A stretch of DNA of 64,000 nucleotides from positions 862,801 to 926,800 of the forward strand of contig CBDAPM010000003.1 of NCBI GenBank assembly GCA_965198455.1, in the 5' to 3' direction. The DNA is from Terriglobus sp. GTDB lineage: Bacteria; Acidobacteriota; Terriglobia; Terriglobales; Acidobacteriaceae. Both the position numbers and the translations under genes were made by a program. Positions 20,679 to 34,875 of this stretch are shown here, in pieces; position 1 is the first letter of the stretch; every line of letters begins with the position of its first letter. The notes under the pieces were generated by a model that made no database searches, was not told where the DNA came from, and saw only the letters and a list, made by a program, of their open reading frames with translations.

Positions 20679-21650
20679 ATGCTTGGTCTTCGTTTGTTTG
20701 CTGGTCTTTTTGCAGTCTCACTGATTCGGGTTATCGCCGGTAAACAGGAGCCGCATACCAAGGAAGAAAGTGTTCCCTTTGTCATCCGGGACATCTCCGG
20801 CCCACGCCCGTTCGTCATGGCTCAACTGAACGGCAAGCCCTTCGAGATGATGGTCCACAGCGGTGCCAGCTTTTACGCCCAGACGGATCACGCCCGTGCG
20901 AAATCCATAGGAATTACCCCCGTGACCAGCGACAGCAATTATGGCATCAGCGCAGTGGGACACGTGAGCTCTCTTGGGAAGGGTCAAGCTATATTGGACT
21001 CGCTGGTGGTGGGAGCCTCCGTTTCAAGCCGGGTGCCAATCTCAATCTTCGAAGTGCCCGTTCCCTCGATGGAGGGCATGCTTGGAAGAAAGTGGCTCAT
21101 CGAGAACTCAGTGATAGTGGATTTCGAAACCCGTCGCTTAATCTTCCCTTCGTCACATGACTCTGCACTTGGGCAAGACGCATTTCTTGTAGCTCATGGG
21201 TACTCTCCGCATCGGATGATGGAGGGAGCGGAATCTGGTGGCCGTTCCTTGGTATCCGTATCTGTGAACGGTACGGTCGGCCTCTTTCTGGTAAGCACTG
21301 TCGCTAACACTGTTGTCGACGTCCGGTTTGCCAACCGTGCCGGGATAGCGCATTCCGCCACCGGAGAAGCATTCGGTGGACCAACGGGAACAACCGGCGC
21401 CACCGACCGAAGCAAAAGGGCGCTGAGTTTTTTGCTCGACGGACAAGTCATGAGGAAGGTGACGCCTGAGGTTTTCGATACATTCGCTTACGATGGGCAA
21501 GGTCGATCAAAATCTGTAGCGGGCCAGACAGTGGGTTCCTTGGGAGCTGACTTCATGCTGGCGAACCATGCGGTAATTGATTTCGCAACCGGGACGCTTC
21601 TGGTCCGGCGTCGCATCAAATCGGTCTTGCGCGCGGAGAGAGACTTTTAA
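20679..21650 (+). CDS. exported tandem retropepsin-like (aspartic-protease-fold) protein with degenerate active sites
   Basis: Two repeats fit the pattern xLNGxxxxxx-(D-T-G-A-S)...GMLGxxWL...VIVDF/VIDF. The first has HSGAS (MMVHSGAS) and the second has STVAN where DTGA is expected. Confidence 0.5.
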   Translation: MLGLRLFAGLFAVSLIRVIAGKQEPHTKEESVPFVIRDISGPRPFVMAQLNGKPFEMMVHSGASFYAQTDHARAKSIGITPVTSDSNYGISAVGHVSSLGKGQAILDSLVVGASVSSRVPISIFEVPVPSMEGMLGRKWLIENSVIVDFETRRLIFPSSHDSALGQDAFLVAHGYSPHRMMEGAESGGRSLVSVSVNGTVGLFLVSTVANTVVDVRFANRAGIAHSATGEAFGGPTGTTGATDRSKRALSFLLDGQVMRKVTPEVFDTFAYDGQGRSKSVAGQTVGSLGADFMLANHAVIDFATGTLLVRRRIKSVLRAERDF

Positions 21651-21719
21651 TCGACGACCGCATCGGCCTGGAACTTATCCATCCAAACGGGGAAGCAAGC
21701 CAGCTCTTCGGTAGGGAAG

Positions 21720-22358
21720 TTACTTCTCACAAGCCGGCGCAATGCGCTCGTAGAACTGGCTGCCAATCTGGCGGTCGAGCTGCCGAACGGATCATCCGGA
21801 GCGCAACGCTTCGGCTTCGTAGAATTGGCGAGCCTCTTGGTTTCTCACCGAGAGCAGTCGTACATAGGCGCACCATGGTAACGGGAAGCGGTTCGCGACG
21901 GCGGTGAAGTCCGATATGGTCGATCCCGCGGCAGGGTGAGCAAATTGTCCAGACGGTGTCTGGAGAATGTTCCTCTCGGGCCAGGTTCGATAAAAACCGC
22001 TCATCTGCCAGAGATTGGCTCTGCCGAACCCGCGTCCGAAACGCCGCGTGAGGTCCTTGGCGAGTTGCTCCACCAGCTTCTCACCGTATTCCGCCCAGTT
22101 CTCTCCTCGCATCTCAGATTCAACGATGCGCCTTCCGATTTCCCAATACGTCGCGGTCATGACCGCGTTAATGCTGCGCGCTGACGCGACACGAGCGGCT
22201 TGCAACAAATCGACGATGCCGTTGCGAACATAGGCGTAGTCCGCATCTGGTCTGTCCAGCTTCTGCTCAGCCCTATCCAGGTCCATCCCAATCCATTTCA
22301 TTGATTGCACTCCGCTGGTTTCGCCAACCAGGGGAGACGTGCCGACTGCGCTAAACAA
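21720..22358 (-). pseudogene. DUF1016/YhcG-family (PDDEXK nuclease) gene remnant with nonsense codon and 3' truncation
   Basis: N-terminal YhcG-like sequence (AVMTATYWEIGRRIVESE...GFGRANLWQMSGFY...EARQFYEAEALRSG). An in-frame TGA (21792-21794) then occupies the position where family members have Trp. The frame continues SVRQLDRQIGSQFYERIA and ends, so the nuclease domain is missing. Confidence 0.7.
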
Positions 22359-22512
22359 AAGTAGTGGTGAGCTGGTCCGCTACGACCCAGCTCACCCGCC
22401 CTAAAAGTTTGTGTCAAAGGCCGCCGATTAGGTCCGTTTTGCCGGTTCTTTCGGTTGCTAACTACTTACTGTCGATAACTTAGCGTTTTGCAAGTTCCGT
22501 GGCATGGAGGCG

Positions 22513-23754
22513 TCAAGCCCACAGGCAAGATATAGGAGCGGCGAATAGGCGGTCCCCGAAAGGGACCACCTTCGTTCCGTCGTACATTACGATTCCAACT
22601 TTCAGGTCATCACCACAAATGTCCAACAGCTTCCTGATCCCTTTGAAGTCGCTCGCATGGACGGTTGCGCTTGCTTTGACCTCAACACCGACTAGTGCGC
22701 CGTGTTCATCCTCTACGACGATGTCAATCTCATCCTGATCCTTATCCCGATAGTGATGGAGCGTATAGCCTTCGTCGGACCATGTGATCTGCTTCATGAC
22801 TTCGGCAAATACAAATGTTTCCAGCAACGCACCAAACGTGGAGCGGTCCTTTGCTATCTGCGCAGTAGTCAATGCCAGCAAGGTGGCGAGCAACCCCGAG
22901 TCGACGAAATGTAGTTTTGGGGTCTTGATCAGTCGCTTCAGTTCATTGCGGAACCACGGGGATACCCGCTGCACGAGAAAGAGCTGTTCAAGGATGCCGG
23001 TGTATTTTCTTGTCGTCTTGTCGTCCATCCCGATCTGTCCGCCGATTTGAGTGAAGTTGGTAAGTTGCCCGGACTGGTGGGCGAGTGCCTGGAGTAACCG
23101 CGGCAACTGATCCAGCTTCTCTACTTCCGCGATATCCCGCACATCCCTCTGTACGATCGCCTTCACATAGTCGCGCGCCCAAGCCTGACGTCGCCGGGAG
23201 TCTTCTCTTCGCAGCATCTCAGGGTAGCCGCCTACCAGCACCGCATGGACAAGCTGATCGCCCTCGATGTCCGGCCCCGGCTTCACCAACTTGCCATCGA
23301 ATGCCATCTTCAGAAAGGTGGGCTCTTTGCCGAGTATTTCGGCTCTGGAAATCGGCATCAGATTTACGATTTCCATGCGGCCTGCAAGGCTCTCGGACAC
23401 CTGAGGAAGAGTGAGAATGTTGGCAGATCCCGTTAGCAGGAAACGGCCTGCCCTGCGGTCGTTATCAACGGATCGTTTTATGGCTCTCAGAAGTTCCGGG
23501 GCTCTTTGCACTTCGTCGACGGTTACCAGATCGAATCCACGCACAAAGCCAGCGGGGTCGTTGCGAGCGGCTTCAAGCACCGTGTCGTCATCCAAAGTCA
23601 CATACTCGCGGTTCTTATCGGCGAACTGTTGGACAAGCGTCGTCTTGCCGCACTGTCGTGGTCCTATCAGCATGACCACGGGAGTGTCAGTAAGGGCGGT
23701 GGCCACGCGTCGGGCTGCGAATCTCTGTACGAACTGGAAATTGGCGTCGGCCAT
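22513..23754 (-). CDS. AAA-type ATPase with C-terminal DUF4143 / restriction-endonuclease-like domain (COG1373-like)
   Basis: Walker A GPRQCGKTT, Walker B VTVDEVQ, C-terminal DEIDIVVEDEHGALVGVEVK (PD-(D/E)xK-like). Confidence 0.85.
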   Translation of the reverse strand: MADANFQFVQRFAARRVATALTDTPVVMLIGPRQCGKTTLVQQFADKNREYVTLDDDTVLEAARNDPAGFVRGFDLVTVDEVQRAPELLRAIKRSVDNDRRAGRFLLTGSANILTLPQVSESLAGRMEIVNLMPISRAEILGKEPTFLKMAFDGKLVKPGPDIEGDQLVHAVLVGGYPEMLRREDSRRRQAWARDYVKAIVQRDVRDIAEVEKLDQLPRLLQALAHQSGQLTNFTQIGGQIGMDDKTTRKYTGILEQLFLVQRVSPWFRNELKRLIKTPKLHFVDSGLLATLLALTTAQIAKDRSTFGALLETFVFAEVMKQITWSDEGYTLHHYRDKDQDEIDIVVEDEHGALVGVEVKASATVHASDFKGIRKLLDICGDDLKVGIVMYDGTKVVPFGDRLFAAPISCLWA

Positions 23755-24046
23755 CTCGGATTATTGTATCGTCTAATCCGGATCTAATTCCCGTCCGATT
23801 CGGATTAAGGACCCGGCCAAACCGGAAGGGTTGAAAGGCTGCCGCCCCAACCCCGGCAACCAATCTTTACAAATTCTACGGGGATTTTGCCTTCATCCAG
23901 AACTACGGCACCCCCCTAAATACTGGACCGACGTACAAATAGCGTACACATAAGAAGCGAAATGAGCCCAAATGGTCCCATTCAAGCCCAAAGCCATTTC
24001 CCGTAAAACCCATCCCTTCAACAACTTCCATTGATTCCAAACCGCT

Positions 24047-24112
24047 TAGCATACTTGGAAGGCAGCCCTGAAAAGGCCGGCGTCGGCGGTTCGATCCCGT
24101 CTCTGGCCACCA
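24047..24112 (+). pseudogene. truncated tRNA-Phe(GAA) remnant (5' acceptor strand missing)
   Basis: TA-GCATACTTGGAAGGCA (D-arm-like), anticodon loop CTGAAAA, GTC-GGCGG-TTCGATC-CCGTC T-arm, TCTGGCC-A-CCA 3' end. No complement (GGCCAGA) occurs upstream, and the anticodon stem 5' strand is 2 nt short relative to canonical tRNA-Phe. Confidence 0.65.
24091..24112 (+). repeat. direct repeat copy 1 (tRNA-Phe 3' end; att-like)
   Basis: TCGATCCCGTCTCTGGCCACCA matches 30104..30125 at 21/22 positions in the same orientation. Confidence 0.8.
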
Positions 24113-24227
24113 CCACCGTTACACACAGTTGATTCATCGAAAACCGGCCCAATGCCGCCATTTGGGCAGCTTTAGCTCCGACTTCCTTCGTGGAGCGACG
24201 AGGCAAAGCTTTAGCCTCTAACGGATC

Positions 24228-25059
24228 TCAGCCGGGCAATGCGTCTTGAACGGACTCCGCGATGTAGCTCTTCATCGCCTGGTTCAACTGCGAATCCACT
24301 TCATCGGCAATCGTCATAACACCCAGGAGCAGGACACTGAAGTCAATCGTCCCCAGGTTTTTTTGCAATGTATGGAAGATCGTCACCTGGAGAATGCGGC
24401 TTTCTTCGACCATCATGGCGGCGGTGTAATTTTGTCTGCGACGAGCGAGCCCGTGAGCTGAGGCGGCTTCAGACTTCAGCTCCTTAGTCCCAAGCGGCTT
24501 CAAAGACCCCAGCCGTCTTGCAAGATCGCGAAAGAGCTGGGGCAGGTGCTCGCAACGTAATTCGCGGCTGAGTGGAACTGCTATCAAATCATCTTCTTGT
24601 TCTAACCCACTCATACCACTCACGAATCGCCTCTTCTCTCGTGCGTTCGAGAATGGTGGCGAGAGTTTCAATCTTGCGCTTTTGAAGCGGTCCCTTGGCA
24701 AGACGCTGCGTGATCGCGGCGATCAGGTCAGGAACGTTCATGGGCTTGACGAGGATTTCGTCGGTTTGGAGCAAAATCGCGTTGGCCGCAGCGGACATTT
24801 CAGGAAACGAACTCAGCAGCAAAGTCACAGCCTCTGGATTGGCATGGCGCATCGCACTCACAACAGTCAATCCGTCACCGGCATGAGGCATATGCAGATC
24901 GCTCAATAGAACATCGAAGTTTTGTGAGCTGATCAGCCTCAATGCTTCTTTTGCGTCAGCCGCGGCAGTCGCCTCGAAACCATGCTTCTCAAGAATGGTG
25001 CAAAGACTCAAACGGATCGGTTCGCTATCGTCAACTACAAGTACCCTCGCCAACGCCAT
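24228..25059 (-). pseudogene. response regulator (receiver + RsbRD_N-like C-terminal domain) split by a frameshift
   Basis: Receiver domain (VLVVDDSEPIR...DVLLSDLHMPHAGDG...LVKP) runs into ...ILERTREEAIREWYEWV and stops at TGA. The continuation EQEDDLIAVPLSRELRCEHLPQLFRDLARRL lies in another frame (track ORF 24228..24701). The 832-nt span is not a multiple of 3. GGAGG lies before ATG 25059. Confidence 0.6.
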
Positions 25060-25368
25060 TGAACCTCCAAGTGGTCGCAGACGAGTGTCCGAGTGTCCCC
25101 AGCTAGCTTGAGCATACGCTTTGTCGCATAAGTTACACATTTAAGTTAGGATGAAGCGCGAAACTTAGGCAAAGAGAGTTCCGGAGGGTCAAACGGTACC
25201 ATCAACAATCCGGCATTATTGGAGCACTGAGCAAAGCTTTCATTCGCGCTCGAACAACAGCCCGGTGAACCAAGGCAGCGGACTTACTACAAGTACAAAG
25301 GACAATGTTCTGCGCTATGGACGGCTAGCGCAGAATGTATCTTATGGAATCCAGAACCCGGTGCCGTC

Positions 25369-26114
25369 TTGCAAATCGAAGAAACGCTGCAACTGGCCGC
25401 CGAGACGGCTGGCATCGGCACCTGGCATCTGTCCTTACCTGAGAGCGAACTTAGCAGTTCTCCCAAATGTAAAGAGGTCTTCGGTCTCTCTGCTGACGCT
25501 CCATTCCGATACGAAGATTTCCTCTCAGTGGTGCATCCCGATGACCGATCGTTGGTTGAGGCAACGGTAGCCCCCGCTCTCGACCCGCAAGGAACAGGAA
25601 GCGCCATTGGACGCGGCACTGTCTTTGAGCTTTCCCTCGATGGAGGAGAGGAAAGAGTGTCGGATAGGCAAGAAGAAACTAAATCGTACTGACCAGACCG
25701 CCGCAGGTTAGTTAAGAGTAAGTGCATAAAGGAGCACAAGACTATCTAACCTCTACGCTCGCTAGCAGCCAATTTCCGATTCGGACCATCAAGAAGTGAA
25801 ACACGAGATCAGCATGTCCGGGCTCAAGGACCGTTCATAGTGTCGGAGGATAAAGTCGCGTGCCGGTATCGCCTATATTGGGGCGTCAGGAGAACATATC
25901 GACCCGCTTCCTCTGATGATCACGGATATCGTGATGTCTGGGTTTAGCGGGTCTGTACTCACGGAAGGTCTTGCAACCATCAGGCCGGAGACCAAAGTGC
26001 TGTATACCTCGGGATACGCCGACGACGAAACTGTTCAGCTGAATGTGCGCGGAAGAAATGATGTACAGAGAGCGCATTCTGGCAAGAGTTAGCCCACATA
26101 TCCTGAAAAGCTAA
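25369..26114 (+). pseudogene. hybrid sensor histidine kinase remnant (PAS fragment, HATPase tail, receiver fragment)
   Basis: AAETAGIGTWHL...FRYEDFLSVVHPDDRSLVEATV (PAS) is joined directly to GRGTVFELSL (end of HATPase_c). A receiver C-terminal half follows in another frame at ~25890-26110 (LMITDIVMSGFSGSVLTEGLATIRPETKVLYTSGYADDE). No HisKA domain is present. Confidence 0.6.
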
Positions 26115-26276
26115 GAAACAGCAAAGAATCCATGTATCCGCATGAGCGCTCCCGTCAAAGAAGCCTATAGTGGACACACTGATTCGGTTCTCGAGGACCG
26201 CTTCCACTTCCGAATTCCATCTAGATAACTCCTGTATGACCTCGAGGGCCGCCTGCTTGGCTGAGAGGTTTCCGAA

Positions 26277-26738
26277 ATGGTCTCACTCGTTCACTGCATC
26301 TACGCAAGCACGGCTACGCGTCCCTTCAGCGAGGCTCAACTTGCAACCCTGATCCAGGGTGCCCGTGTGAAAAATCAGGGTCTCGGTGTGACAGGAATTC
26401 TTGTCTATATGTCCGGTCGATTCTTTCAAATACTGGAAGGCGAAGCGGCAGTGATTGAACAACTATATGCCGCAATCGAGGGCGATCAGCGTCACAAGGA
26501 AGTGACGCGAATCATATTCGAGTCCATTCATGCGCGCGAATTCCGGGATTGGTCCATGAGTTTGATCGATCTTTCCGGGGACAAGCTTCGCCAACTCGTC
26601 CTGCTGGCCGATCCGACAAGCGGGATGCTGTCAGTCTCACAGCTTCCCAACGGGCGCGCAAAGAAACTGTTGCTGGCCTTTTGCGAGGGACGTTGGGGAC
26701 TGACCTTGGCTGACCTCGCGGTGAAATCGACGATATGA
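26277..26738 (+). CDS. BLUF-domain blue-light FAD photoreceptor (short, stand-alone)
   Basis: LVHCIYASTA (Tyr), GVTGILVYMSGRFFQILEG (Gln), DQRH, FRDWSMS (Trp/Met): all canonical BLUF signature positions. Confidence 0.9.
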   Translation: MVSLVHCIYASTATRPFSEAQLATLIQGARVKNQGLGVTGILVYMSGRFFQILEGEAAVIEQLYAAIEGDQRHKEVTRIIFESIHAREFRDWSMSLIDLSGDKLRQLVLLADPTSGMLSVSQLPNGRAKKLLLAFCEGRWGLTLADLAVKSTI

Positions 26739-27532
26739 GCGCAAAACGTTCCCATGTCGTAGAGATCTCAGAGCCGGCACGGCTTTCCGCAGAGCAGGCG
26801 GCGGGAAAACCCATCAGTTTCGCATTCCAACCCATCGTCGATGCAAAGACCCATGAAATCCTGTCGTACGAAGCTTTGGTACGTGGCTCGGCCGGCAATG
26901 AAACAGCAGCTCAAATCTTCGAGCAGATTGCTCCGACCGATCTCAACCTTTTCGACCAGCGCTGCCGAACCACGGCAATCGACTTGGCCGTGAAGCTAAA
27001 AATTCCTTGCAATCTCAACTTGAATATCCTCGCCAATAGCAGGTATTCGCCCGAGAGGAGAATCCGGACAACGTTTGAGGCTGCAAATCGTGGAGGCCTC
27101 CCTTTGGATTGCATCGTGCTGGAGGTTTCGGAGAGTCAGATCGTCCACGATCCTTCAGAGTTCGCGAGGATGGTGAATCTGTATCAAGGCATGGGTTTCA
27201 AAATGGCAATCGACGATTTCGGTGCAGGCTACGCCGGCTTAAGTCTCTTGGCCGACTTCCAACCTAATCAGATCAAGATCGACAGAGGCCTCATTCACCA
27301 CATCGAAAGTCGAGGCCCACGGCAGGTTATCGTTCGTGCCGTCATACAAGTGTGCCGCGACCTTGGAATCGATCTTGTCGCCGAAGGTGTCGAAACCACG
27401 GAGCAATATGCGTGGCTGGCCAGCGAGGGCGTCCGCTACTTTCAGGGTTACCTTTTCGGACATCCAGCTTTCGAAACTCTGGAGACACCATCGTACGGCC
27501 ATATCTTGCCCGCTTCTGGGGAACCCACTTAA
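26735..27532 (+). CDS. EAL-domain c-di-GMP phosphodiesterase (stand-alone)
   Basis: FQPIV, YEALVRG, NLNILAN, LEVSES, DDFGAGYAGLS, KIDRGLI, EGVET, QGYLFGHP: a full catalytic EAL motif set. ATGA start/stop overlap with the BLUF gene. Confidence 0.9.
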   Translation: MSAKRSHVVEISEPARLSAEQAAGKPISFAFQPIVDAKTHEILSYEALVRGSAGNETAAQIFEQIAPTDLNLFDQRCRTTAIDLAVKLKIPCNLNLNILANSRYSPERRIRTTFEAANRGGLPLDCIVLEVSESQIVHDPSEFARMVNLYQGMGFKMAIDDFGAGYAGLSLLADFQPNQIKIDRGLIHHIESRGPRQVIVRAVIQVCRDLGIDLVAEGVETTEQYAWLASEGVRYFQGYLFGHPAFETLETPSYGHILPASGEPT

Positions 27533-27592
27533 GGTTGTCAACAGACGACCTAAAGGCATCCCTGCCCGGCGTTTGCCTGACGACTGAATTTC

Positions 27593-28045
27593 TCAGAACT
27601 TTGCGATGAGGCTGATTCCGCCAACCAGCAGGACGCCACCTACTATCCGACCAACGTTCAGCGGATGGGCCTGCATTCTGAACCACCCAAAATAGTCGAT
27701 CAGTAGCGAAGTGATCAGCGCAGCGGTCACAGTAAACCCGACGAATGGTCCTGCGCCCACTTTATTGACCAGCGTAAGGCCAGCATAGACCTGCACTGCT
27801 CCTACCAAGCCGCCAACGACTGCCCACCAAGGTAGTTCTGCCAAGTCCTTCTGAGTAGGCAGTGGGTGGGGATGGATCAACGAAGCGCCAGCGAAAAAGA
27901 AGGTAATGAGCGCAAATGAAATAGCCGAAGCAAGCCACGGGTTGACGACATGTTTGTTGAGGTGACCGTTCATCGCCGCACCGCAACTCTACAGCGCACC
28001 TCCGATGAGGATGAAGGGAATGATCCATCCGGCGTTCGCACTCAT
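27593..28045 (-). pseudogene. DMT-superfamily DUF606/YdcZ-like membrane protein with in-frame amber codon
   Basis: ATG 28045 (after AGAGGAGAG) gives MSANAGWIIPFILIGGAL-TAG-SCGAAMNGHLNKHVVNPWLASAISF... in one frame. The TAG at 27989-27991 sits where I recall this family having a conserved Gln. Confidence 0.6.
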
Positions 28046-28062
28046 AAGACTCTCCTCTGTGT

Positions 28063-29373
28063 TTAGTGTTTTCCGACCAGCATGTTCATCAAGATTGCTC
28101 CGCCGAGCGCGGCAAACAGCGCCACAGGCATTGCAACTACACCCACTTTCAAGAACTTCCAGAAACTCACGTCGAGTTTCTCTCCACCTGCGTCTCCACC
28201 CGAGTCCTTGCGAAGTGCAAGCAGCCACAGAATCGTGGCCAGCGAGCCGGTGACCGAGAGATTGGGCCCTAGATCCACACCGATCAGAACGGCATTGGCA
28301 ATCAATCCTTTTGTATGAGCGGCTTGAATCGTGCCCCCCGCAATCAGTCCCAACGGAAGGTTGTTCACGATATTGTTCGCTACGCCCACAACAAAGCCGA
28401 CAACGAGCGCACCGGCGTTCTGGCCCAAATGCGATGCACATGCAAGCCACTCTTGGGTCAGCTTCAAAGCTCCCTGACTCTCAACAGCATCGACCAAGAC
28501 AAACAGGCCGGCGACGAGCAGCAGCGTTGCCCAACTAATCTCGCGGGCAAGCCTGACGGGATTGCTTTTTGCCTTCACGGAGACGACTGCGGTGATCACC
28601 AGCGCAACAAGGCACGTCGGCAGTCCCAAATCTTTCTTCAGTGCTGAGGCCGTCAGAAGCACTGCAATCATCAGCGCGAGACCTGCGAGGACCCGCCGGC
28701 CGTTGCTGGTCAGCTTCACATCTTCTACCTCGCACTCGATGCTCTTGCAGAGATCGTCGCGAAACAGAAAGCGCATGACGAAAAATGTCACAAGGATCGA
28801 GAAAAGCGAGGGGATGCCGAAGTCCGCAAGCCATGTCCCCAAGGGGGGCATACCGGCGTGGAAGACGACCAGGTTGGCGGGATTTGAGATGGGGAGTACA
28901 AAGCTTGCGGCGTTTGCAATCAACGCGCAGACGAACAAGTACGGAAGCGGCGAGACTCTTGCCTTGCGTACTGCCGTCAGGATCGCCGGCGTCAACACAA
29001 CTGCGGTAGCATCGTTCGACATGAAAATCGTCACCAGCGTTCCCACTCCATAGACAAGCAGGAAGAGACGCGAGCAGCTGCCGTTGGCCCCGCGTACCGC
29101 GATTGAAGCCACCCAATCAAAGACGCCCTGTTCCCTCGCCAGCTCGCTGAGGAGCATCATGCCGATGAGGAACAGGTACACATCGCTGCCCTTTGCGACG
29201 GCCTGTCCGGCCAACTTCAGCGGCACAAGCCGCAACGCTATCAAAACAAGCGCTCCTCCTGAGACCCACCAGACTTCAGGGATTCCGCGCGGACGTGTCA
29301 GCATCAGAGCAATGCTGATGGCGACAATCAGCGGCAGAACAACGTGCCCGATCTCGGTAGTGATCATCACCAT
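28063..29373 (-). CDS. ArsB/NhaD-superfamily permease (arsenite-efflux-like)
   Basis: 436-aa polytopic protein with ...LFLIGMMLLSELAREQGVFDW...LTIFMSNDATAVVLTPA..., typical of ArsB/anion permease families. Confidence 0.8.
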   Translation of the reverse strand: MVMITTEIGHVVLPLIVAISIALMLTRPRGIPEVWWVSGGALVLIALRLVPLKLAGQAVAKGSDVYLFLIGMMLLSELAREQGVFDWVASIAVRGANGSCSRLFLLVYGVGTLVTIFMSNDATAVVLTPAILTAVRKARVSPLPYLFVCALIANAASFVLPISNPANLVVFHAGMPPLGTWLADFGIPSLFSILVTFFVMRFLFRDDLCKSIECEVEDVKLTSNGRRVLAGLALMIAVLLTASALKKDLGLPTCLVALVITAVVSVKAKSNPVRLAREISWATLLLVAGLFVLVDAVESQGALKLTQEWLACASHLGQNAGALVVGFVVGVANNIVNNLPLGLIAGGTIQAAHTKGLIANAVLIGVDLGPNLSVTGSLATILWLLALRKDSGGDAGGEKLDVSFWKFLKVGVVAMPVALFAALGGAILMNMLVGKH

Positions 29374-29395
29374 TTCTTTCCGTTCTTGTTCGGCC

Positions 29396-29803
29396 CAAGT
29401 TCCATTGGCTGAGTATTTCCTAGCGCGTTACACGCAACGAAATCAACTCGCTTCGACGGGCCTTGCTGCCGATGCCGTCGTGGCTCTCCAAGACTATTCC
29501 TTCCCAGGCAACGTGCGAGAGTTGGAGCACCTGATCGAGCGGGCTGCCGTCAAAGCCGGGGGCCGGGCTATAACAGCCGACCTCATCCAAGAAGAGTTAG
29601 CGAGAGAAGAGTGCAGGGCCAGGCATCTTCGACGCTCAAGCAGCCGATGCGATGCCCTTCCATGATGCGGTCGCGCGTTGGGAACGTCATCTCATCGAGC
29701 AGGCGCTGAAGGCGTCTCGCGGCAACAAATCTAACGCCGCTCGGCGGCTGGGAATCCATCGAAGCTTCTCTACGAAAAGCTAACCCAGTTTGGCATGCTG
29801 TGA
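29396..29803 (+). pseudogene. 3' remnant of a sigma-54-dependent (NtrC/Fis-family) transcriptional activator
   Basis: PLAEYFLARY...LQDYSFPGNVRELEHLIERAAV (end of the AAA+ sigma-54 interaction domain). After frameshifts it continues FHDAVARWERHLIEQALKASRGNKSNAARRLGIHRS / KLLYEKLTQFGML (Fis-type HTH). There is no N-terminal part; the homology begins about 25 nt from the ArsB-like start. Confidence 0.65.
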
Positions 29804-30103
29804 CTCGAATGGGTGTGTGGATCATGCAGGAAGGAAAGGGTCATGCAGATCGGCTGGAGAGACACCCGTTGAAGCGGGATCAAGCAATTCGGTTGATGCA
29901 CTGGCTTTGCGGGAATGTCAAAGGCATGGCCAGCTGCGTTAGCCATCTCCAAGATGTCTGCCCGAAAGAAGGCTTGCTCCGCACCCGGCTGCTCATAGGA
30001 ACCAAGGGAGACGGTGCTGGTGATTCTTTGCCTGCGTACACAATGCTGTGCGGTCGCATATTGCTGCCGCGTTCTTCAACTAGTTTGCGGTATGTAACGG
30101 TAA

Positions 30104-30125
30104 TCGATTCCGTCTCTGGCCACCA
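30104..30125 (+). repeat. direct repeat copy 2 (tRNA-Phe 3'-end fragment; att-like)
   Basis: TCGATTCCGTCTCTGGCCACCA. No tRNA body lies upstream of it. Confidence 0.8.
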
Positions 30126-30396
30126 TATTCTAAGAACGTATAAGGCGACCAGATTCTCTCAGATCTGTCCAGGACACATACAAGGACACGTCCTGGAACT
30201 ACGTGGCACCTCGGTACTCCATCGTCAGCCTCGGCGTTCTATTTGCCGATACGGCATCCTCTTCCTCATCTCTTTCTGGCTTCGGCTCGAGCTTGCTCCA
30301 TATCTCGCGCGAGACGCTTCCGGTCTTCCCGATGCGCGGATTTGCGTTTGCAGATGGTGAACATGTTCACCTACCATGCGCGCACGGGAAGAGCCG

Positions 30397-31644
30397 TCAG
30401 ACACTGGCAGCTGCCGTCTCGTGTTTGGGCGTGGCGTACGCCGGCATGGCAAACGTGACCAGCGCTGCCACAAGGCTTAGGGCGACGAACAGCAACAGGC
30501 CGGGGTTGTAGCGGCCGGTCCGGTCAAAGCTCATGCCCAGCACCAACGGACCGATGCCGATCGACAAAGCAAACAGCCCAAAGGCGATGCCGTACAGGCG
30601 GCTGAAGGCTGCATTGCCGAAGTAGCGGCGCACAAGGAACGCGGTGAAATCCACCTCCGCGCCGAGCACCAGACCAAGCAGGAGAGCGGCAACAGCATCC
30701 GGCAGCTTGCCGTGCGCGTAGATGAGCAGCAGTAGCGATGTGACCACCGCAAGGCCGATCAGCGCGAGCAGACGTGCCGCGTTGAACCGGTCAAGTAACC
30801 AGCCGATGCCGCCGCGACCGGCGATAACCGCGAGACCGGCCAGCCCGGCAATCCGCGCCGCCTCCGTAGGATTGTTGCCGCGGTCCACCAGCATGGGCAC
30901 AAGGCTGGCAAAGGTACCGCCGGCGGCGATGGAGATCAACATCAGCACCGCGGACATCACCAGAAACGCGCGCGTCCACAGCAGGGGCGCGATAGCAACG
31001 CGATCGCGAACCCGGTTCGGCAGCGGAAACCGCGCAATGCGCGTAGCGACGGCAGCGGCAGGCACCGTCACAATCAGCGTAATAAGACCGATGGCCGCAT
31101 AGGCGCTTCGCCATCCGTAGTGGCCAACAAACCAGGTGGCAAGCGAGGGCAGCAGCGCGGCGCCAAGACCGATCCCCATCAGGGACAGCCCAAGTGCCAA
31201 ACCGAGCCGTCGCTCGAAGCTGCGCACCAGGACCGCCGCATAGCCGATGGGAGAAGCGCCGCCGCCGAAGCACGAAAACAGCGCATAGAGCAGGTAAAGG
31301 TGCCAAAGATGCGGGGTCAGCAGCGATAACGACGCAAAGGCGAGCGAGAGGCCGACAACCGAGGGCAGGATGACGCGGCGAGGACCGAAGCGGTCGATGA
31401 GCCAACCCCACAGCGGGGCAGTCAAAGCGACGGCGAACTCGCCTGTGACAAGGGCAATGGATACCTGCGTCCGGGTCCAGTGAAACTCCCCGGAGAGTGG
31501 GCGAACAAAGACGCCAAAGACATAAATGAGCAGGCTGCCGACGGAGAGCAGAAGGCAAATGCCGCAGCAGACCACCGTGAGCCAGTCGCGGTCCATGGGA
31601 GCAGCAATGTCCAGGGACGAGTTTCTTTCGTGTGCAGCAGGCAT
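30397..31644 (-). CDS. MFS transporter (12-TMS type)
   Basis: Polytopic MFS_1-like protein. Start set at ATG 31644 (AGGAG upstream) rather than the track start 31845. Divergent from a TetR gene. Confidence 0.85.
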   Translation of the reverse strand: MPAAHERNSSLDIAAPMDRDWLTVVCCGICLLLSVGSLLIYVFGVFVRPLSGEFHWTRTQVSIALVTGEFAVALTAPLWGWLIDRFGPRRVILPSVVGLSLAFASLSLLTPHLWHLYLLYALFSCFGGGASPIGYAAVLVRSFERRLGLALGLSLMGIGLGAALLPSLATWFVGHYGWRSAYAAIGLITLIVTVPAAAVATRIARFPLPNRVRDRVAIAPLLWTRAFLVMSAVLMLISIAAGGTFASLVPMLVDRGNNPTEAARIAGLAGLAVIAGRGGIGWLLDRFNAARLLALIGLAVVTSLLLLIYAHGKLPDAVAALLLGLVLGAEVDFTAFLVRRYFGNAAFSRLYGIAFGLFALSIGIGPLVLGMSFDRTGRYNPGLLLFVALSLVAALVTFAMPAYATPKHETAAASV

Positions 31645-31663
31645 CGCAGGCTCCTGGTGGAAT

Positions 31664-31773
31664 GTGAACGTGTTCGCAAAACGAGATTCGGTGAGAGGGC
31701 GCATGCTTGTCAAGCAACGGACGCTTCGGGTAGTGAAAGCCGGCACGCGTGTATGGCGCTTGTGAACTCGTTC
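31664..31773. promoter_or_regulatory. candidate TetR operator motifs GTGAAC-NN-GTTC (two copies) in the divergent intergenic region
   Basis: GTGAACGTGTTC at 31664-31675 and GTGAACTCGTTC at 31762-31773. A half-like GTGAACGATTTG lies at 31804-31815. Confidence 0.3.
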
Positions 31774-31889
31774 CCTATCTACTGTTGCGGTAGTACGCAC
31801 GCGGTGAACGATTTGCTGGAATTCACCCGGATTCTTCGAAGCCACAGTATCAGGAGGAAGGCTCTAAAATTCGTAGCTAAGGAGAACCT

Positions 31890-32675
31890 TTGACTACAGC
31901 AGGGCGCAAACCGGTCGTGAACGTGAAAAAAGAGGGAGTGCGCGAACAGTCCAAACTGGAGCGCCAGGACCGGATCATGATGGCCGCTCGAACCATGTTC
32001 GCGGAACATGGCTATGACGCAACGACGCTGCGGCAGGTTGCGCAACGGTCAGGTCTGGGGCTTGGAACGCTCTTCAACTACATCAGTGATAAGCGCGATT
32101 TGATCTACCTGGTCTTCAACAAGGAGGCAAGCGTTGCGTGCGACACTTCGCTGGCAGCACCCAGGCCATGGCAAAACTTTACGGAAAAGATTATGGGCAT
32201 GGTCGAGCCGAACTATCGGCTCTTCGGCAGCGAACCGGTCCTCTCGCGTATTTTGCTCAGTGAGGTTCTACAGCATACGCCGGGCCTTCACCTTGCAGAA
32301 CATCTCGCCATTCGTGACCGCTTCATCCGCGGCATGGAGGCGGTAGTTGCAGAGGCGCAGCTGTCCGGTGAGATCGGATCAACACAGGGGCCCAGGTTGA
32401 TCGCCCGTCATATCTTCTTTGCCTATTCGGCCGCCCTGCGCTGGTGGCTGGCATCGGTCGAACATCCAGAGTGGCGTTCTGGTTTACGCGACTTCGCGGA
32501 GATCCTGAAGCTGCTGACCACCGGGCTCAATCTGAGAACGGATTCCGAATTCACAAAGCCGGGCAGGGTTGTCACCGCCAACGTGCAGTTGAAAACGTCC
32601 AGTCGAGCCGTTGACGGAACTCGGGCTGTGATCCGGCCAAAGACAACGCCGGCACGCTCACTTGAAACCGCTTGA
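31890..32675 (+). CDS. TetR/AcrR-family transcriptional regulator
   Basis: N-terminal HTH (RIMMAARTMFAEHGYDATTLRQVAQRSGLGLGTLFNYISDKRDL). TTG start with AAGGAG 7 nt upstream. Confidence 0.85.
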   Translation: MTTAGRKPVVNVKKEGVREQSKLERQDRIMMAARTMFAEHGYDATTLRQVAQRSGLGLGTLFNYISDKRDLIYLVFNKEASVACDTSLAAPRPWQNFTEKIMGMVEPNYRLFGSEPVLSRILLSEVLQHTPGLHLAEHLAIRDRFIRGMEAVVAEAQLSGEIGSTQGPRLIARHIFFAYSAALRWWLASVEHPEWRSGLRDFAEILKLLTTGLNLRTDSEFTKPGRVVTANVQLKTSSRAVDGTRAVIRPKTTPARSLETA

Positions 32676-32793
32676 CAAGCGTATCCCCTTTCCATCAATT
32701 TTTCTGAACGCGTTCATTTTCCCTTCTGCTGGCCTGCATCCCAGCGTCTGCGGGACATTATTCGACGTCCCAAGGCAGGGAAAAGCAGGCGGT

Positions 32794-33306
32794 ATGATCG
32801 AGACGCAAGAAACAGAGGTACTCATTATCGGCGCCGGTCCGGTCGGGCTGGCGCTTGCCATTGAGCTGGGAACGCGTGGCTTGCGCTGCATGGTCATCGA
32901 GCAGAACGACCGCGTCGGCAAGAACCCGCGAGCGAAGACGACCAATGTCCGCACACGCGAGCATCTGCGCCGCTGGGGCATTGCCGAGAACCTGCGCCGC
33001 GCCTCCAGGCTGCCGCCCGATTACCCCTCCGACATCATCTTCGCCATGCGATTGAATGGGCCGCAGCTCACGAAAATTGAGAATGCATCGAACTGCAATC
33101 CTGACAGGAACGACCTCTACTCAGCAGCCCATGCCCTTAGCCTTCCCCTGAAACTGATTGCGCCCCAGGATGCTCGCCTAAATCGCCGATACATGGCGCA
33201 GATGGCTATCATCCGGCCAGACCAGCACGTGGCGTGGCGTGGCAATCAACTGCCGGAAGATGTGACAGGATTGCTGCGCCAGATCACGGGCAATCTCGCC
33301 GCCTGA
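32794..33306 (+). pseudogene. FAD-dependent aromatic-ring monooxygenase with large internal deletion
   Basis: N-terminus EVLIIGAGPVGLALAIELGTRGLRCMVIEQ...RTREHLRRWGI, joined to the family C-terminal end IIRPDQHVAWRG after ~130 aa. The central DG / GD-x-AH FAD motifs are absent. It is 170 aa, whereas as far as I recall this family is usually several hundred aa. Confidence 0.55.
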
Positions 33307-33405
33307 TAGGGCCGGCGATCCCCACGAGCGTCATCGTCGGGTGAGTGCACCAGTCCATCTAGGCCCCGTTTCGTTGCTTGATAAAATCTGTGGCTCCCGA
33401 ATCAC

Positions 33406-34875
33406 CTAAGGTGCAAGGTCTGTCCCGGTGGCTGCGCTAAGCGTGTGGATTGCCATCCACGTTTGCGAGTAGGCATTGAGGGCATCGCTTGTGGAGGAGC
33501 GTGCGTCACGCAGTGCGTCAAGATAATCGATCAGCGCGAGTCCACCATGGTCAAAGGCGTAGCGCGCGATGGAGAGCACGTCAGCGGATTCGTCAAGATA
33601 ATGATCGCCGAAGCGGGTCGAGAGAGCCTTCGCGTGAATGTAGGCGCTCCACGCCTGGTTCACATCAGAATGGATCTGGTTTCGTGTGGCCTGCACGGTA
33701 AGCCGGGCGGCGTCTGCCTGCAGGCGCGTCGTCTCTTTATTGCCTTGATTCTTGTCGAAAATACGAATGGGAATGTTGACGTTGAAGCCGCCGGAGTTCT
33801 CAGTGCCGGTCCTGTCGTATTCCACTTCGAGTGTGGGGTCAGCCTTGCCCTGTGAGATGGCGAGCTTCGCGGTGGCATCCGCCGCCGTCACGGCGAACTC
33901 CGCCGCTCGCAAGTCCGGACGCCGCTGCAGCGCTGTGGCCAGTACCTCTTCATGGGTCTGCGTCAGCGGCGGTGGAACGATCAGGCCGGTGATATCGAAA
34001 TCGGGTGAAGAGGCCTGCACGCCCATCAGCGTCTGCAACTGATCCGCTGCCTGCTCCACGGTAATCTCGGCATTCTGCTCATCGGCTTCAAACGAGCCAA
34101 GCTGCAGGTCAAGCCGCTCGAAGTCCAGCTTGCCGAGATCGCCGGCCTTGTAGCGCTCATTGCCGATCTCCACTTCATGACGGAAGTCTTTGAGCTGCGC
34201 CTGCGAAAGCTGTAGCGCTTCCTTAGCGATGAGCATGGTCGTGAAGGCCTGGCGGACGGACAACTCGGTCTGGCGGACCGTGTCCTGTAGCTGCGCCTCG
34301 GTCTGTGCGGTGGTTGCGCGCGCATTGTCCAGGCGGTATGCGCGCTTGTCGCCGCGCTCAAACAAACGCGAGACCTGCACGGCGTAGTTGTAAGGGTTGT
34401 TCTGATAGGCAGGTTCTGAGACGTCGGAGGCTGCCACGCCGAAATAAGGATTCGCACGCACGCCGGCCTGTAGCTCTTGCGCGCGGACGGCGCGGAGATT
34501 CTGTGCCGCCGCCAGCAGCGTTGGATTGTTCTGGCGTGCACGCTCAAGCACCTGTCGCAACGTGAGCGCGCCCGGCTTTGAAGCTGGAGGTACACGCGGG
34601 TCGCTTCCCGGTGAGGCGGCAGCCGCGTAGCCCGCAGGCCCCGAGCCGGGCTCCTGCGACGCACCGCTTTGCGTCGCTCCTCGTGTGCCGGTCGAACCGG
34701 CGCCGCTTTGTCCCGTTGGAGCGCCCGCCTGCGAAGCTGCGCCGACAGCACCACTACCGGAAGCGCCGGCGCCCGCGGCACTTCCTGCAGCACCCGCAGC
34801 CTGCGCATAGCTGGCTGGGATGGACGCCGTTAACAAAGCAAGTGATAGACAGAGACGCGGAATGAAATGGCTCAT
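33406..34875 (-). CDS. TolC/CzcC-like outer membrane efflux protein
   Basis: Signal peptide, ~80-aa Ala/Gly/Ser-rich linker, then OEP repeats. Last gene of the czc-like operon, with a 4-nt overlap with the RND gene. Confidence 0.85.
   Translation of the reverse strand: MSHFIPRLCLSLALLTASIPASYAQAAGAAGSAAGAGASGSGAVGAASQAGAPTGQSGAGSTGTRGATQSGASQEPGSGPAGYAAAASPGSDPRVPPASKPGALTLRQVLERARQNNPTLLAAAQNLRAVRAQELQAGVRANPYFGVAASDVSEPAYQNNPYNYAVQVSRLFERGDKRAYRLDNARATTAQTEAQLQDTVRQTELSVRQAFTTMLIAKEALQLSQAQLKDFRHEVEIGNERYKAGDLGKLDFERLDLQLGSFEADEQNAEITVEQAADQLQTLMGVQASSPDFDITGLIVPPPLTQTHEEVLATALQRRPDLRAAEFAVTAADATAKLAISQGKADPTLEVEYDRTGTENSGGFNVNIPIRIFDKNQGNKETTRLQADAARLTVQATRNQIHSDVNQAWSAYIHAKALSTRFGDHYLDESADVLSIARYAFDHGGLALIDYLDALRDARSSTSDALNAYSQTWMAIHTLSAATGTDLAP

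What the first reader, a model, noticed from the sequence alone, without database searches (positions are those of the whole stretch)
26277..27532. Split BLUF photoreceptor + catalytically complete EAL phosphodiesterase, translationally coupled
A 153-aa stand-alone BLUF protein has all photocycle residues (Tyr in CIYAS, Gln in FFQILEG, Trp/Met in DWSMS). Its stop overlaps (ATGA, 26735-26738) the start of a 265-aa stand-alone EAL protein with every catalytic motif (EAL, N, ExxE, DDFGAGY, KID, EGVE, QGY). BLUF-EAL proteins are known as fusions (E. coli BluF/YcgF, Klebsiella BlrP1). To my recollection, a two-protein complex has been described only in Rhodopseudomonas palustris (PapB/PapA). Here the pair sits inside an att-bracketed, otherwise decaying cassette of a likely non-phototrophic soil bacterium. 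It is the only signalling unit in the cassette that stayed intact. This suggests selection for light-controlled c-di-GMP turnover and possible horizontal spread of the module.
Basis: partly seen in the sequence, partly recalled or inferred. Interest (0 to 1): 0.65.

Follow-up and report, generated by a model that had tools for sequence, protein, structure and literature searches.

The report
Two-gene blue-light c-di-GMP phosphodiesterase operon
An acidobacterial genome carries a small blue-light sensor gene overlapping the start of a c-di-GMP-degrading enzyme gene; this two-protein version of a known light switch proves common in soil and peat bacteria, so it is a sound but ordinary new member of a known kind.

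Summary
A 153-aa BLUF protein (26277-26738) and a 265-aa EAL protein (26735-27532) overlap by ATGA. Independent sequencing runs show no indel at the junction.

It is best read as a PapB/PapA-type split blue-light-activated c-di-GMP phosphodiesterase, homologous along both parts to fused BlrP1.

It is not rare. Of 79 related loci with room downstream, 52 have BLUF followed directly by EAL on the same strand, often with the same 4-nt overlap. Another 11 are fused and 16 have BLUF alone. The pair is in cultured Bryocella elongata, Granulicella MAGs and a Lautropia MAG. BLUF and EAL distances co-vary (Mantel r = 0.93). A C-terminal BLUF motif (GRAKKLLxAFxxGRW) is conserved in split and fused forms and aligns with the BlrP1 helix that contacts EAL.

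The context claim is largely right. A 22-nt tRNA-3'-like direct repeat brackets 24091-30125, which holds kinase and activator gene remnants. A permease and a receiver ORF look intact, and no integrase was seen.

Complex formation and light regulation are inferred, not shown.

Verdict: a new member of a known kind, of modest interest.

The parts
26277..26738 (+). papB-like gene: 153-aa short BLUF photoreceptor. BLUF core is residues 4-94. The C-terminal extension (95-153) has predicted helices at 127-136 and 144-150.
   Evidence: ORF. Pfam BLUF 8.9e-29. Best PDB sequence hits are BlrB, TePixD, OaPAC and BlrP1. AF2 model has pLDDT 79 with a confident core. The Foldseek hit with the highest query-normalised TM-score is BlrP1, 0.70-0.71 over 147-150 columns.
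26735..27532 (+). papA-like gene: 265-aa stand-alone EAL c-di-GMP phosphodiesterase with a complete catalytic residue set.
   Evidence: ORF. Pfam EAL 4.1e-49. PDB sequence hits: 6IFQ V. cholerae stand-alone EAL 1.4e-61 and BlrP1 EAL 2e-47. The EAL part of the model matches 6IFQ at TM 0.90, rmsd 2.0 A, 46% identity. Catalytic residues checked.
26735..26738 (+). ATGA: the BLUF stop codon overlaps the EAL start codon, an arrangement typical of translational coupling.
   Evidence: Sequence. The same 4-nt overlap is in L001, L002, L084, L085, L086, L087 and many metagenome loci. No indel in independent runs.
26652..26696 (+). Codons for BLUF residues 126-140 (GRAKKLLLAFCEGRW), a conserved C-terminal helix motif and the proposed EAL-docking or signal-relay element.
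   Evidence: At least 97% conserved in 79 relatives, whether split, fused or solitary. In a fused relative it aligns with BlrP1 'DRMFRLLSAF'. Predicted helix 127-136. The role of the C-terminal helices in PapB and BlrP1 comes from the literature.
26263..26268 (+). GAGAGG, a Shine-Dalgarno-like sequence 8 nt upstream of the BLUF ATG.
   Evidence: Sequence. Conserved as GAGAGG or AAGAGG in L084 and L085.
26080..26276 (+). Conserved upstream leader or promoter region that travels with the two genes.
   Evidence: Homology with relatives L084 and L085 (90-92% DNA identity) begins at 26080/26100 and ends at 27552/27576. The flanks beyond differ. No consensus sigma-70 promoter was found on the + strand.
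24091..24112 (+). Left copy of the 22-nt direct repeat. It looks like a tRNA 3' end: T-arm, acceptor strand and CCA. The tRNA-like sequence extends upstream to about 24079 (GGCGGTTCGATCCCGTC...).
   Evidence: Neither ARAGORN nor Rfam finds an intact tRNA or tmRNA.
30104..30125 (+). Right copy of the direct repeat (21 of 22 identical), attR-like.
   Evidence: GC content rises from about 0.54 to about 0.60 near here.
25369..26092 (+). Remnants of a hybrid sensor kinase: half a PAS_3 domain (25369-25692) and the C-terminal half of a receiver domain (25916-26092). They lie in different frames with stops between, and no kinase core is left.
   Evidence: Pfam partial hits, PAS_3 positions 3-47 of 89 and Response_reg 46-86 of 111. 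Three-frame translations.
24589..25140 (-). 183-aa ORF with a complete response-regulator receiver domain. It overlaps a 157-aa ORF in another frame (24228-24701), so a frameshift is possible.
   Evidence: Pfam Response_reg 4.2e-21, positions 1-110 of 111. ORFs. The 157-aa ORF has no Pfam or PDB match.
29084..29665 (+). Remnant of a sigma-54-type activator. Only the AAA+ lid and the C-terminus are left.
   Evidence: Pfam AAA_lid_14 8.5e-18 at residues 107-179, with no AAA core.

Best explanation
This is a two-gene operon for a split, blue-light-activated c-di-GMP phosphodiesterase of the PapB/PapA type.

Proposed mechanism:
- The 153-aa BLUF protein binds a flavin. Blue light drives the usual Tyr9/Gln51/Met94 hydrogen-bond switch.
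- The change passes through strand beta5 to the C-terminal helices, which include the conserved GRAKKLLxAFxxGRW motif.
- Those helices dock on the dimeric 265-aa EAL protein and raise its hydrolysis of c-di-GMP to pGpG.
- The ATGA overlap couples translation, so both subunits are made together.
- Light would therefore lower c-di-GMP. By analogy with R. palustris, that would shift the cell away from biofilm or matrix production.

Shown here: both domains and all key residues; the coupled gene arrangement and its wide conservation; co-inheritance of the two genes; homology over the full length to fused BlrP1-type enzymes.

Inferred: flavin binding, the physical complex, the direction and size of the light effect, and the physiological output.
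For: - Domains and residues.
- Gene arrangement: of 79 related loci with room downstream, 52 have BLUF directly followed by EAL on the same strand, with start-stop distances of about -49 to +15 nt. The 4-nt overlap is the commonest junction. The pair occurs in Granulicella MAGs, Bryocella elongata and a Lautropia MAG.
- Reciprocal check: 3 of 3 abundant EAL homologues have a BLUF gene directly upstream.
- Rosetta-stone evidence: 11 related loci encode one fused BLUF-EAL protein of 394-414 aa. One of them aligns with BlrP1 over residues 7-384 (E 7e-72). The split point in the window falls in the variable linker of the fused forms.
- Co-inheritance: Mantel r = 0.93 between BLUF and EAL distance matrices of 30 dereplicated pairs, with 0 of 2000 permutations as high.
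- C-terminal motif: conserved in at least 97% of 79 relatives and aligned to the BlrP1 BLUF C-terminal helix. The whole BLUF model fits BlrP1 best by TM-score.
- Literature: PapB activates PapA through its C-terminal helices in a heterotetramer, and BlrP1 is activated about 4-fold by light.
Against: - There are no biochemical or expression data for this locus. No identifiable RNA runs were found.
- The AF2 model of the concatenated pair folded each domain well, but the domain arrangement did not reproduce BlrP1 (TM 0.52, rmsd about 16 A; pTM 0.61). It therefore says nothing about an interface.
- Residues 100-125 of the BLUF protein are predicted with low confidence.
- 16 of 79 relatives with the same C-terminal motif have no adjacent EAL, so the motif is not proof of an EAL next door.
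- I could not compare directly with the PapB and PapA sequences.
- The gene pair sits in a decaying island, so it may be on its way to loss. Some close relatives carry a broken EAL gene.
Confidence: 0.75

Rival explanations
1. The two proteins are only co-transcribed and act separately. The BLUF protein would signal to some other partner, as PixD, BlsA or AppA do, and the EAL would be a constitutive or otherwise regulated phosphodiesterase.
For: Short BLUF proteins are known to use many kinds of partner. 16 of 79 relatives have no EAL next door. A Gemmatimonadales BLUF sits beside cheA. The Polyangiales and Litorivivens genes are solitary.
Against: Fused homologues exist. Co-inheritance is tight, r = 0.93. 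The start/stop overlap is conserved. The C-terminal motif is shared with fused forms and BlrP1. EAL homologues are reciprocally linked to BLUF genes.
Confidence: 0.1
2. It is a BluF/YcgF-like light switch that works by protein binding, for example as an anti-repressor, rather than by hydrolysis. Several JGI annotations of the EAL homologues suggest this ('blue light- and temperature-responsive anti-repressor').
For: JGI names on many homologues. E. coli YcgF is a BLUF-EAL protein with a degenerate, inactive EAL domain.
Against: All metal-binding and catalytic EAL residues are intact here and in 53 of 55 relatives. Pfam on the ORFs at 20679-29665 and on the larger ORFs at 29800-34875 found no MerR-type repressor; a few small ORFs near 24000-24200 and 25265-25740 were not scanned. 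The closest solved structures are active phosphodiesterases. The JGI name probably reflects similarity of the EAL domain to BluF (inference).
Confidence: 0.05
3. The enzyme has a different or broader substrate or role. It could be a versatile cyclic-dinucleotide phosphodiesterase like V. cholerae VcEAL, or a RimA-like regulator of ribosomal protein S6 modification. Light would then gate something other than c-di-GMP alone.
For: The best PDB hit is the 'standalone versatile EAL' 6IFQ, deposited as a cyclic dinucleotide phosphodiesterase, at 46% identity. The best NCBIfam hit is RimA at 238 bits.
Against: The RimA score is well under the 430-bit cutoff, and no RimK-type ligase domain was found in the ORFs scanned in the neighbourhood. 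The BLUF-linked homologues BlrP1 and PapA are c-di-GMP enzymes. Extra substrates would extend the main explanation, not replace it.
Confidence: 0.08
4. The split is an artefact or a recent pseudogenising frameshift of a fused BLUF-EAL gene.
For: Fused relatives exist. The island around the pair is decaying.
Against: The same split with its own ATG is found in relatives from 92% down to about 45% identity and in several phyla. No indel at the junction in independent runs. The fused forms are one clade nested among split ones.
Confidence: 0.02

Closest known systems
PapB/PapA of Rhodopseudomonas palustris (short BLUF protein plus stand-alone EAL phosphodiesterase)
   Same: By inference both work as a heteromeric complex in which blue light raises c-di-GMP hydrolysis (literature; Kanazawa 2010, Ren 2012 and Nakasone 2019 as cited).
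   Different: The host is a non-phototrophic acidobacterium close to Granulicella, not a purple alphaproteobacterium. I could not measure sequence relatedness to PapB/PapA themselves. Nothing has been shown biochemically here.
BlrP1 of Klebsiella pneumoniae (fused BLUF-EAL; PDB 3GFX)
   Same: Homologous in both parts: BLUF E 7.5e-12 and EAL E 2e-47. The C-terminal BLUF helix motif aligns. BlrP1 is the best whole-model structural match for the BLUF protein. The catalytic residues are the same.
   Different: BlrP1 is one polypeptide, whereas here there are two, cut in the variable linker. BlrP1 lacks the Trp of the W-x-M motif (it reads HGTGM), which the window protein keeps as W92.
BluF (YcgF) of E. 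coli
   Same: It pairs a BLUF domain with an EAL domain. Database names of homologues point to it.
   Different: BluF is fused. Its EAL domain is degenerate and inactive, and it acts as an anti-repressor. Here the EAL is catalytically complete.
VcEAL (PDB 6IFQ) and RimA: stand-alone EAL proteins
   Same: They are the closest stand-alone EAL relatives: 46% identity and TM 0.90 to 6IFQ, and 238 bits to the RimA model.
   Different: The entries and family descriptions seen here mention no BLUF partner for them; I did not check their gene neighbourhoods. RimA works with RimK according to the NCBIfam family description. The window protein is below the RimA cutoff.

Membership tests
Pfam BLUF (PF04940) photoreceptor domain | Profile match above the gathering score, with photocycle residues Tyr, Gln and Met (plus Trp) and the flavin-binding Asn | tested here: met
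   99.9 bits against a cutoff of 25. Y9, N33, Q51, W92 and M94 are present and invariant in 79 relatives.
Pfam EAL (PF00563), catalytically active class | Profile match plus the full set of metal-binding and catalytic residues: EAL Glu, Arg, Asn, ExxE, DD, Lys, ExxE and Gln | tested here: met
   167.5 bits against a cutoff of 31.3. Q32, E46, R50, N97, E130, E133, D160, D161, K181, E217, E220 and Q237 are all present.
PapB/PapA-type split BLUF + EAL system | Short BLUF protein with C-terminal helices and no output domain | tested here: met
   153 aa with only the BLUF domain. Predicted helices at 127-136 and 144-150.
PapB/PapA-type split BLUF + EAL system | Stand-alone EAL gene adjacent and co-oriented, in one operon | tested here: met
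   4-nt overlap. The arrangement is conserved in 52 of 79 related loci.
PapB/PapA-type split BLUF + EAL system | The two proteins form a physical complex | tested here: inconclusive
   The AF2 model of the concatenated chains gave no trustworthy interface (pTM 0.61; TM 0.52 to BlrP1). Indirect support comes from fused homologues and co-variation.
PapB/PapA-type split BLUF + EAL system | Blue light increases c-di-GMP hydrolysis | not testable with these tools
   This needs an enzyme assay in dark and light.
PapB/PapA-type split BLUF + EAL system | Sequence orthology to R. palustris PapB and PapA | not tested
BlrP1-type fused BLUF-EAL phosphodiesterase | BLUF and EAL in a single polypeptide | tested here: not met
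   Two ORFs in different frames with a stop between them. No indel in independent runs.
BluF/YcgF-type anti-repressor | Degenerate EAL domain and a MerR-like partner repressor | tested here: not met
   The catalytic residues are intact. No MerR-type domain in the ORFs scanned around the pair; a few small ORFs near 24000-24200 and 25265-25740 were not scanned.
RimA (NCBIfam NF052265) | Score above the equivalog cutoff | tested here: not met
   238.2 bits against a cutoff of 430.
tRNA-targeting integrative island | Direct repeats derived from a tRNA 3' end at both borders | tested here: met
   22-nt repeat, 21 of 22 identical, ending in ...CCACCA, 6013 nt apart, with 0 matches expected by chance.
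tRNA-targeting integrative island | An intact target tRNA and an integrase gene | tested here: not met
   No tRNA or tmRNA was found by ARAGORN or Rfam. No integrase domain in the ORFs scanned.

The most novel reading that the evidence does not exclude
The split BLUF|EAL operon, not the textbook fused BlrP1 form, may be the ancestral and dominant design of BLUF-gated c-di-GMP phosphodiesterases in soil, peat, moss and lichen bacteria. Under this reading there were at least two independent fusions and repeated loss or relocation of the EAL partner. There is also a three-part variant: BLUF fused to a degenerate EAL, followed by an active EAL. In Acidobacteriaceae the roughly 1.5-kb module would move between genomic sites as a unit, here inside a tRNA-targeting island remnant.
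Probability: 0.35. Interest if true: 0.45.

Novelty: new member of a known kind. Interest (0 to 1): 0.3.

Why it matters
Blue-light control of c-di-GMP is textbook biology for fused BlrP1, but only one split system (PapB/PapA) has been studied.

This locus and its many relatives show that non-phototrophic Acidobacteriota of peat, moss and lichen habitats commonly encode the split form. That gives them a plausible way to tie the biofilm-or-motility decision to daylight at a surface.

It also supplies a large natural set of co-evolving BLUF/EAL pairs, with fused and degenerate variants. Such a set is useful for working out how a BLUF domain talks to an EAL dimer, and as parts for optogenetic control of c-di-GMP.

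For this particular window the result is confirmatory rather than surprising.

Tried and rejected
- The exact-sequence look-up of the window's BLUF protein found nothing.
- I spent the single genome-contig scan on the lone protein, and it returned only 3 loci. An alignment query would have reached further.
- The first alignment (A1) was too diverse for the metagenome scan. A 10-sequence alignment worked.
- The AF2 model of the concatenated BLUF+EAL chain folded both domains, but gave an inter-domain arrangement unlike BlrP1 and a low pTM. I rejected it as evidence on the interface.
- Promoter and terminator scans found nothing above background on the + strand.
- Rfam and ARAGORN found no tRNA or tmRNA at the att-like repeats. 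The 22-mer is absent from all fetched loci.
- No runs identifiable as RNA were found, so there is no expression evidence.
- The 157-aa ORF overlapping the receiver gene has no Pfam or PDB match, so a frameshift could not be established.
- Literature searches found no survey of BLUF-next-to-EAL gene pairs and no second characterised split system.
- I considered and rejected: a sequencing artefact, a BluF-type anti-repressor, and RimA. Reasons are given under the rival explanations.
- I looked briefly for a programmed frameshift that would make a fused product. No slippery heptamer is evident by eye before the stop, and I did not pursue it.
Full report
**1. Observation**

The sequence ACGATATGAGC makes the BLUF stop (TGA) overlap the EAL start (ATG) by four bases at 26735-26738.

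Pfam gives BLUF at E 8.9e-29 over the whole profile, and EAL at E 4.1e-49. A GAGAGG Shine-Dalgarno-like sequence lies 8 nt before the BLUF ATG.

- BLUF: Y9, N33, Q51, W92, M94.
- EAL: Q32, E46, R50, N97, E130, E133, D160, D161, K181, E217, E220, Q237.

Contigs of four public runs from at least three coded organisms cover the junction without any indel. The split is therefore not an assembly error.

**2. What the proteins are**

*BLUF protein.* Its best solved relatives by sequence are BlrB, TePixD, OaPAC and BlrP1.
- An AF2 model built with 33 homologues has a confident BLUF core (pLDDT about 90).
- Residues 100-125 are poorly defined.
- The model has C-terminal helices at 127-136 and 144-150.
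- In a Foldseek search PixD ranks first by E-value. The highest query-normalised TM-scores belong to BlrP1 chains, at 0.70-0.71 over 147-150 columns. BlrP1 is thus the only target that also matches the C-terminal part.

*EAL protein.* It is closest to the stand-alone V. cholerae EAL 6IFQ (E 1.4e-61) and to the EAL domain of BlrP1 (E 2e-47).
- In the model it superposes on 6IFQ at TM 0.90 and 2.0 A.
- NCBIfam's nearest model is RimA, at 238 bits against a 430-bit cutoff, so it is not RimA.

**3. How common the arrangement is**

*Close relatives.*
- The two nearest genome hits, both Granulicella MAGs with BLUF about 62-64% identical, carry the same pair with the same ATGA overlap. Their neighbours differ: an M13 peptidase upstream and rimO downstream.
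- Metagenome contigs whose BLUF-EAL module is 90-92% identical in DNA (L084, L085), and another contig with 65% BLUF identity (L086), also keep the 4-nt overlap.

*Metagenome survey.* A scan with a BLUF alignment returned 80 loci out of at least 274 confirmed relatives. I analysed them by tblastn and ORF tracing, together with the window and L001-L003. Of 79 loci with room downstream:

| Architecture | Loci | Clusters at 90% BLUF identity |
|---|---|---|
| EAL directly downstream, same strand (split) | 52 | 34 |
| Single fused BLUF-EAL ORF, 394-414 aa | 11 | 10 |
| No EAL in the locus (solitary BLUF) | 16 | 6 |
| Mixed | – | 1 |

This sample is biased towards BLUF proteins that carry the two search motifs.

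*Junctions.* They range from about -49 to +15 nt. The 4-nt overlap is the commonest form, at about 23 loci.

*Named genomes.*
- Bryocella elongata, a cultured acidobacterium, has the split pair with a 4-nt overlap.
- A Lautropia MAG has it with a 14-nt gap.
- The Polyangiales and Litorivivens genes are solitary.

*Reciprocal check.* Three abundant EAL homologues, each seen in 39-79 blocks of contigs, all have a BLUF gene directly upstream.

It is right as a statement about what has been characterised: a 2022 census lists only PapB/PapA, and my literature searches found nothing further.

**4. Evidence that the two proteins work together**

- *Fused homologues.* A fused relative aligns with BlrP1 from residue 7 to 384 (E 7e-72). 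The window's break point falls in the variable linker, between the 'GRWR' motif and the 'F-x-F-A-F-Q-P-I-V' start of the EAL domain.
- *Co-inheritance.* Across 30 dereplicated split pairs the BLUF and EAL distance matrices correlate with r = 0.93, with 0 of 2000 permutations as high. This shows inheritance as one unit without partner swapping. Shared phylogeny alone would also give a correlation, so it is support rather than proof of contact.
- *C-terminal motif.* The BLUF tail carries G126-R-A-K-K-L-L-x-A-F-x-x-G-R-W140. It is conserved in at least 97% of 79 relatives and predicted helical. It aligns with BlrP1 'DRMFRLLSAF'.
- *Literature on the relay.* The helices C-terminal to beta5 relay the signal to the EAL in BlrP1 and PapB (Ren 2012 as cited).
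- *Structure model.* An AF2 model of the concatenated proteins folded both parts well (mean pLDDT 85.5). Its domain arrangement did not match BlrP1 (TM 0.52, rmsd about 16 A, pTM 0.61). With an unpaired alignment that result is uninformative.

**5. Mechanism proposed**

Blue light acts on the flavin and flips the Tyr9/Gln51/Met94 hydrogen-bond network. The change moves through beta5 to the C-terminal helices. These press on the EAL dimer and raise c-di-GMP hydrolysis, and c-di-GMP falls.

The sequence features are shown here. Flavin binding, the complex, the sign of the light effect and the output are inferred from BlrP1 and PapB/PapA.

**6. Evolution (rough NJ trees, no support values)**

- The metagenomic fused forms make one clade nested among split forms in both the BLUF and the EAL trees. 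BlrP1 falls elsewhere, which suggests at least two fusion or fission events.
- The window groups with the Granulicella loci.
- Solitary BLUF genes are scattered inside split clades, which suggests recent loss or relocation of the partner.
- Two fused proteins (L022, L062) have degenerate EAL domains (K to S, E to K and other changes). Each is followed at once by an intact stand-alone EAL gene, which makes a third architecture.

**7. Genomic context**

*The repeat.* A 22-nt direct repeat (21 of 22 identical) at 24091-24112 and 30104-30125 looks like a tRNA 3' end. The left copy extends into a T-arm, GGCGGTTCGATCCCGTC. No intact tRNA or tmRNA is detected, and no integrase domain was found in the ORFs scanned.

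*What lies between the repeats.*

| Coordinates | Feature | State |
|---|---|---|
| 24589-25140 | Receiver-domain ORF, overlapped by an unidentifiable 157-aa ORF | Complete receiver domain |
| 25369-26092 | Half a PAS_3 domain and half a receiver domain | Remnants |
| 26277-27532 | BLUF-EAL pair | Intact |
| 27593-27973 | YdcZ-type gene lacking about 19 N-terminal profile positions | Possibly truncated |
| 28063-29373 | ArsB/CitMHS permease | Apparently full-length |
| 29084-29665 | Sigma-54 activator lid | Remnant |

'Decaying cassette' is thus largely right. 'Only intact signalling unit' is too strong.

*Other context observations.*
- GC content is about 0.54 from the start of the window to about 29 kb and about 0.60 after it. 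The low-GC region is therefore much larger than the 6-kb bracket.
- Relatives 90-92% identical in DNA share only 26080/26100 to 27552/27576 with the window. They share a different downstream flank with each other.
- In one run (X6) the module is joined on its left to sequence matching 24207-24236. The 1.9 kb holding the receiver gene and kinase remnants is therefore absent there.
- The module has thus changed neighbours recently. All its nearest relatives are Acidobacteriaceae-like, so the evidence points to local rearrangement or short-range transfer rather than transfer across phyla.

*Host and habitat.*
- The source is an NCBI genome with a 4.38-Mb contig.
- One island protein clusters at 90% or more with a Granulicella aggregans protein.
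- Near-identical DNA occurs in peat, moss and lichen metagenomes. Sensing light makes sense in these habitats; that last point is my inference.

**8. Verdict**

The functional reading as a PapB/PapA-like split light-gated phosphodiesterase is well supported by sequence and comparative evidence, but it is untested biochemically.

The claim of rarity is refuted. This is a new member of a known kind, with modest added value from the survey.

Noticed in passing
window 24079-24112 and 30104-30125: These tRNA-3'-end-like direct repeats bracket 6 kb, yet the 64-kb window holds no intact tRNA or tmRNA, and no integrase domain was found in the ORFs scanned. The element looks like an old island remnant whose target gene is truncated or lies elsewhere.
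   Followed up: partly
window 24237-26120: In run X6 (coded organism C) a contig joins sequence like 24207-24236 directly to 26121. The 1.9 kb with the receiver ORF and the kinase remnants is therefore missing there, either as an insertion in the window genome or a deletion in the other.
   Followed up: no
window 1-30000 versus 30000-64000: GC content steps from about 0.54 to about 0.60 near 29-30 kb. GC skew also becomes strongly negative towards the right end. The low-GC stretch is far larger than the att-bracketed 6 kb.
   Followed up: no
L022 1030-2996 and L062 417-2202: This is a third architecture. BLUF is fused to a degenerate EAL domain (catalytic K to S, E to K and other changes) and is followed immediately by an intact stand-alone EAL gene. 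The fused dead EAL may serve as an adaptor to the live one.
   Followed up: partly
L013, L015, L018-L020, L028, L030, L031, L036, L047, L051, L065, L066, L072, L083, L088, L089: These are solitary BLUF genes that keep the GRAKKLLxAFxxGRW tail but have no EAL in the locus. Several are nested within split clades. L018 and L020 have a 307-aa ORF that looks like an HDOD-type domain protein (by eye, not scanned) lying convergent downstream.
   Followed up: partly
window 27181-27241: There is a depth spike, up to about 150 against about 11, where contigs of other genes match the DDFGAGYAGL-coding stretch with 5-6 mismatches. The same samples therefore hold several other EAL-domain genes, which points to a wider c-di-GMP network.
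   Followed up: no
window 26992; proteins P0244 and P0246: Run X6 shows a 1-nt deletion inside the EAL gene. The 90% cluster of the EAL protein also contains 142-aa and 87-aa pieces from one ENA contig. Some close relatives may therefore carry a broken EAL gene.
   Followed up: no
window 24228-25140 (- strand): The receiver-domain ORF (183 aa) overlaps by 113 nt a 157-aa ORF in another frame that has no Pfam or PDB match. This may be one frameshifted response-regulator gene with an unrecognised C-terminal domain.
   Followed up: partly
window 15552-17195: This 547-aa protein joins a cyclic-nucleotide-binding domain to a pyridine-nucleotide-disulphide oxidoreductase. It sits among MFS transporters and other oxidoreductases in the low-GC region.
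   Followed up: no
window 21792-23754 (- strand): A DUF4143/AAA_14 ATPase gene lies here, followed by a DUF1016 gene that keeps only its N-terminal domain. Both sit just left of the att-like repeat.
   Followed up: no
L084 434-503 versus window 25598-25667: A 70-nt piece of the PAS remnant (96% identical) lies inverted upstream of the BLUF-EAL module in a close relative. This indicates local rearrangement around the module.
   Followed up: no
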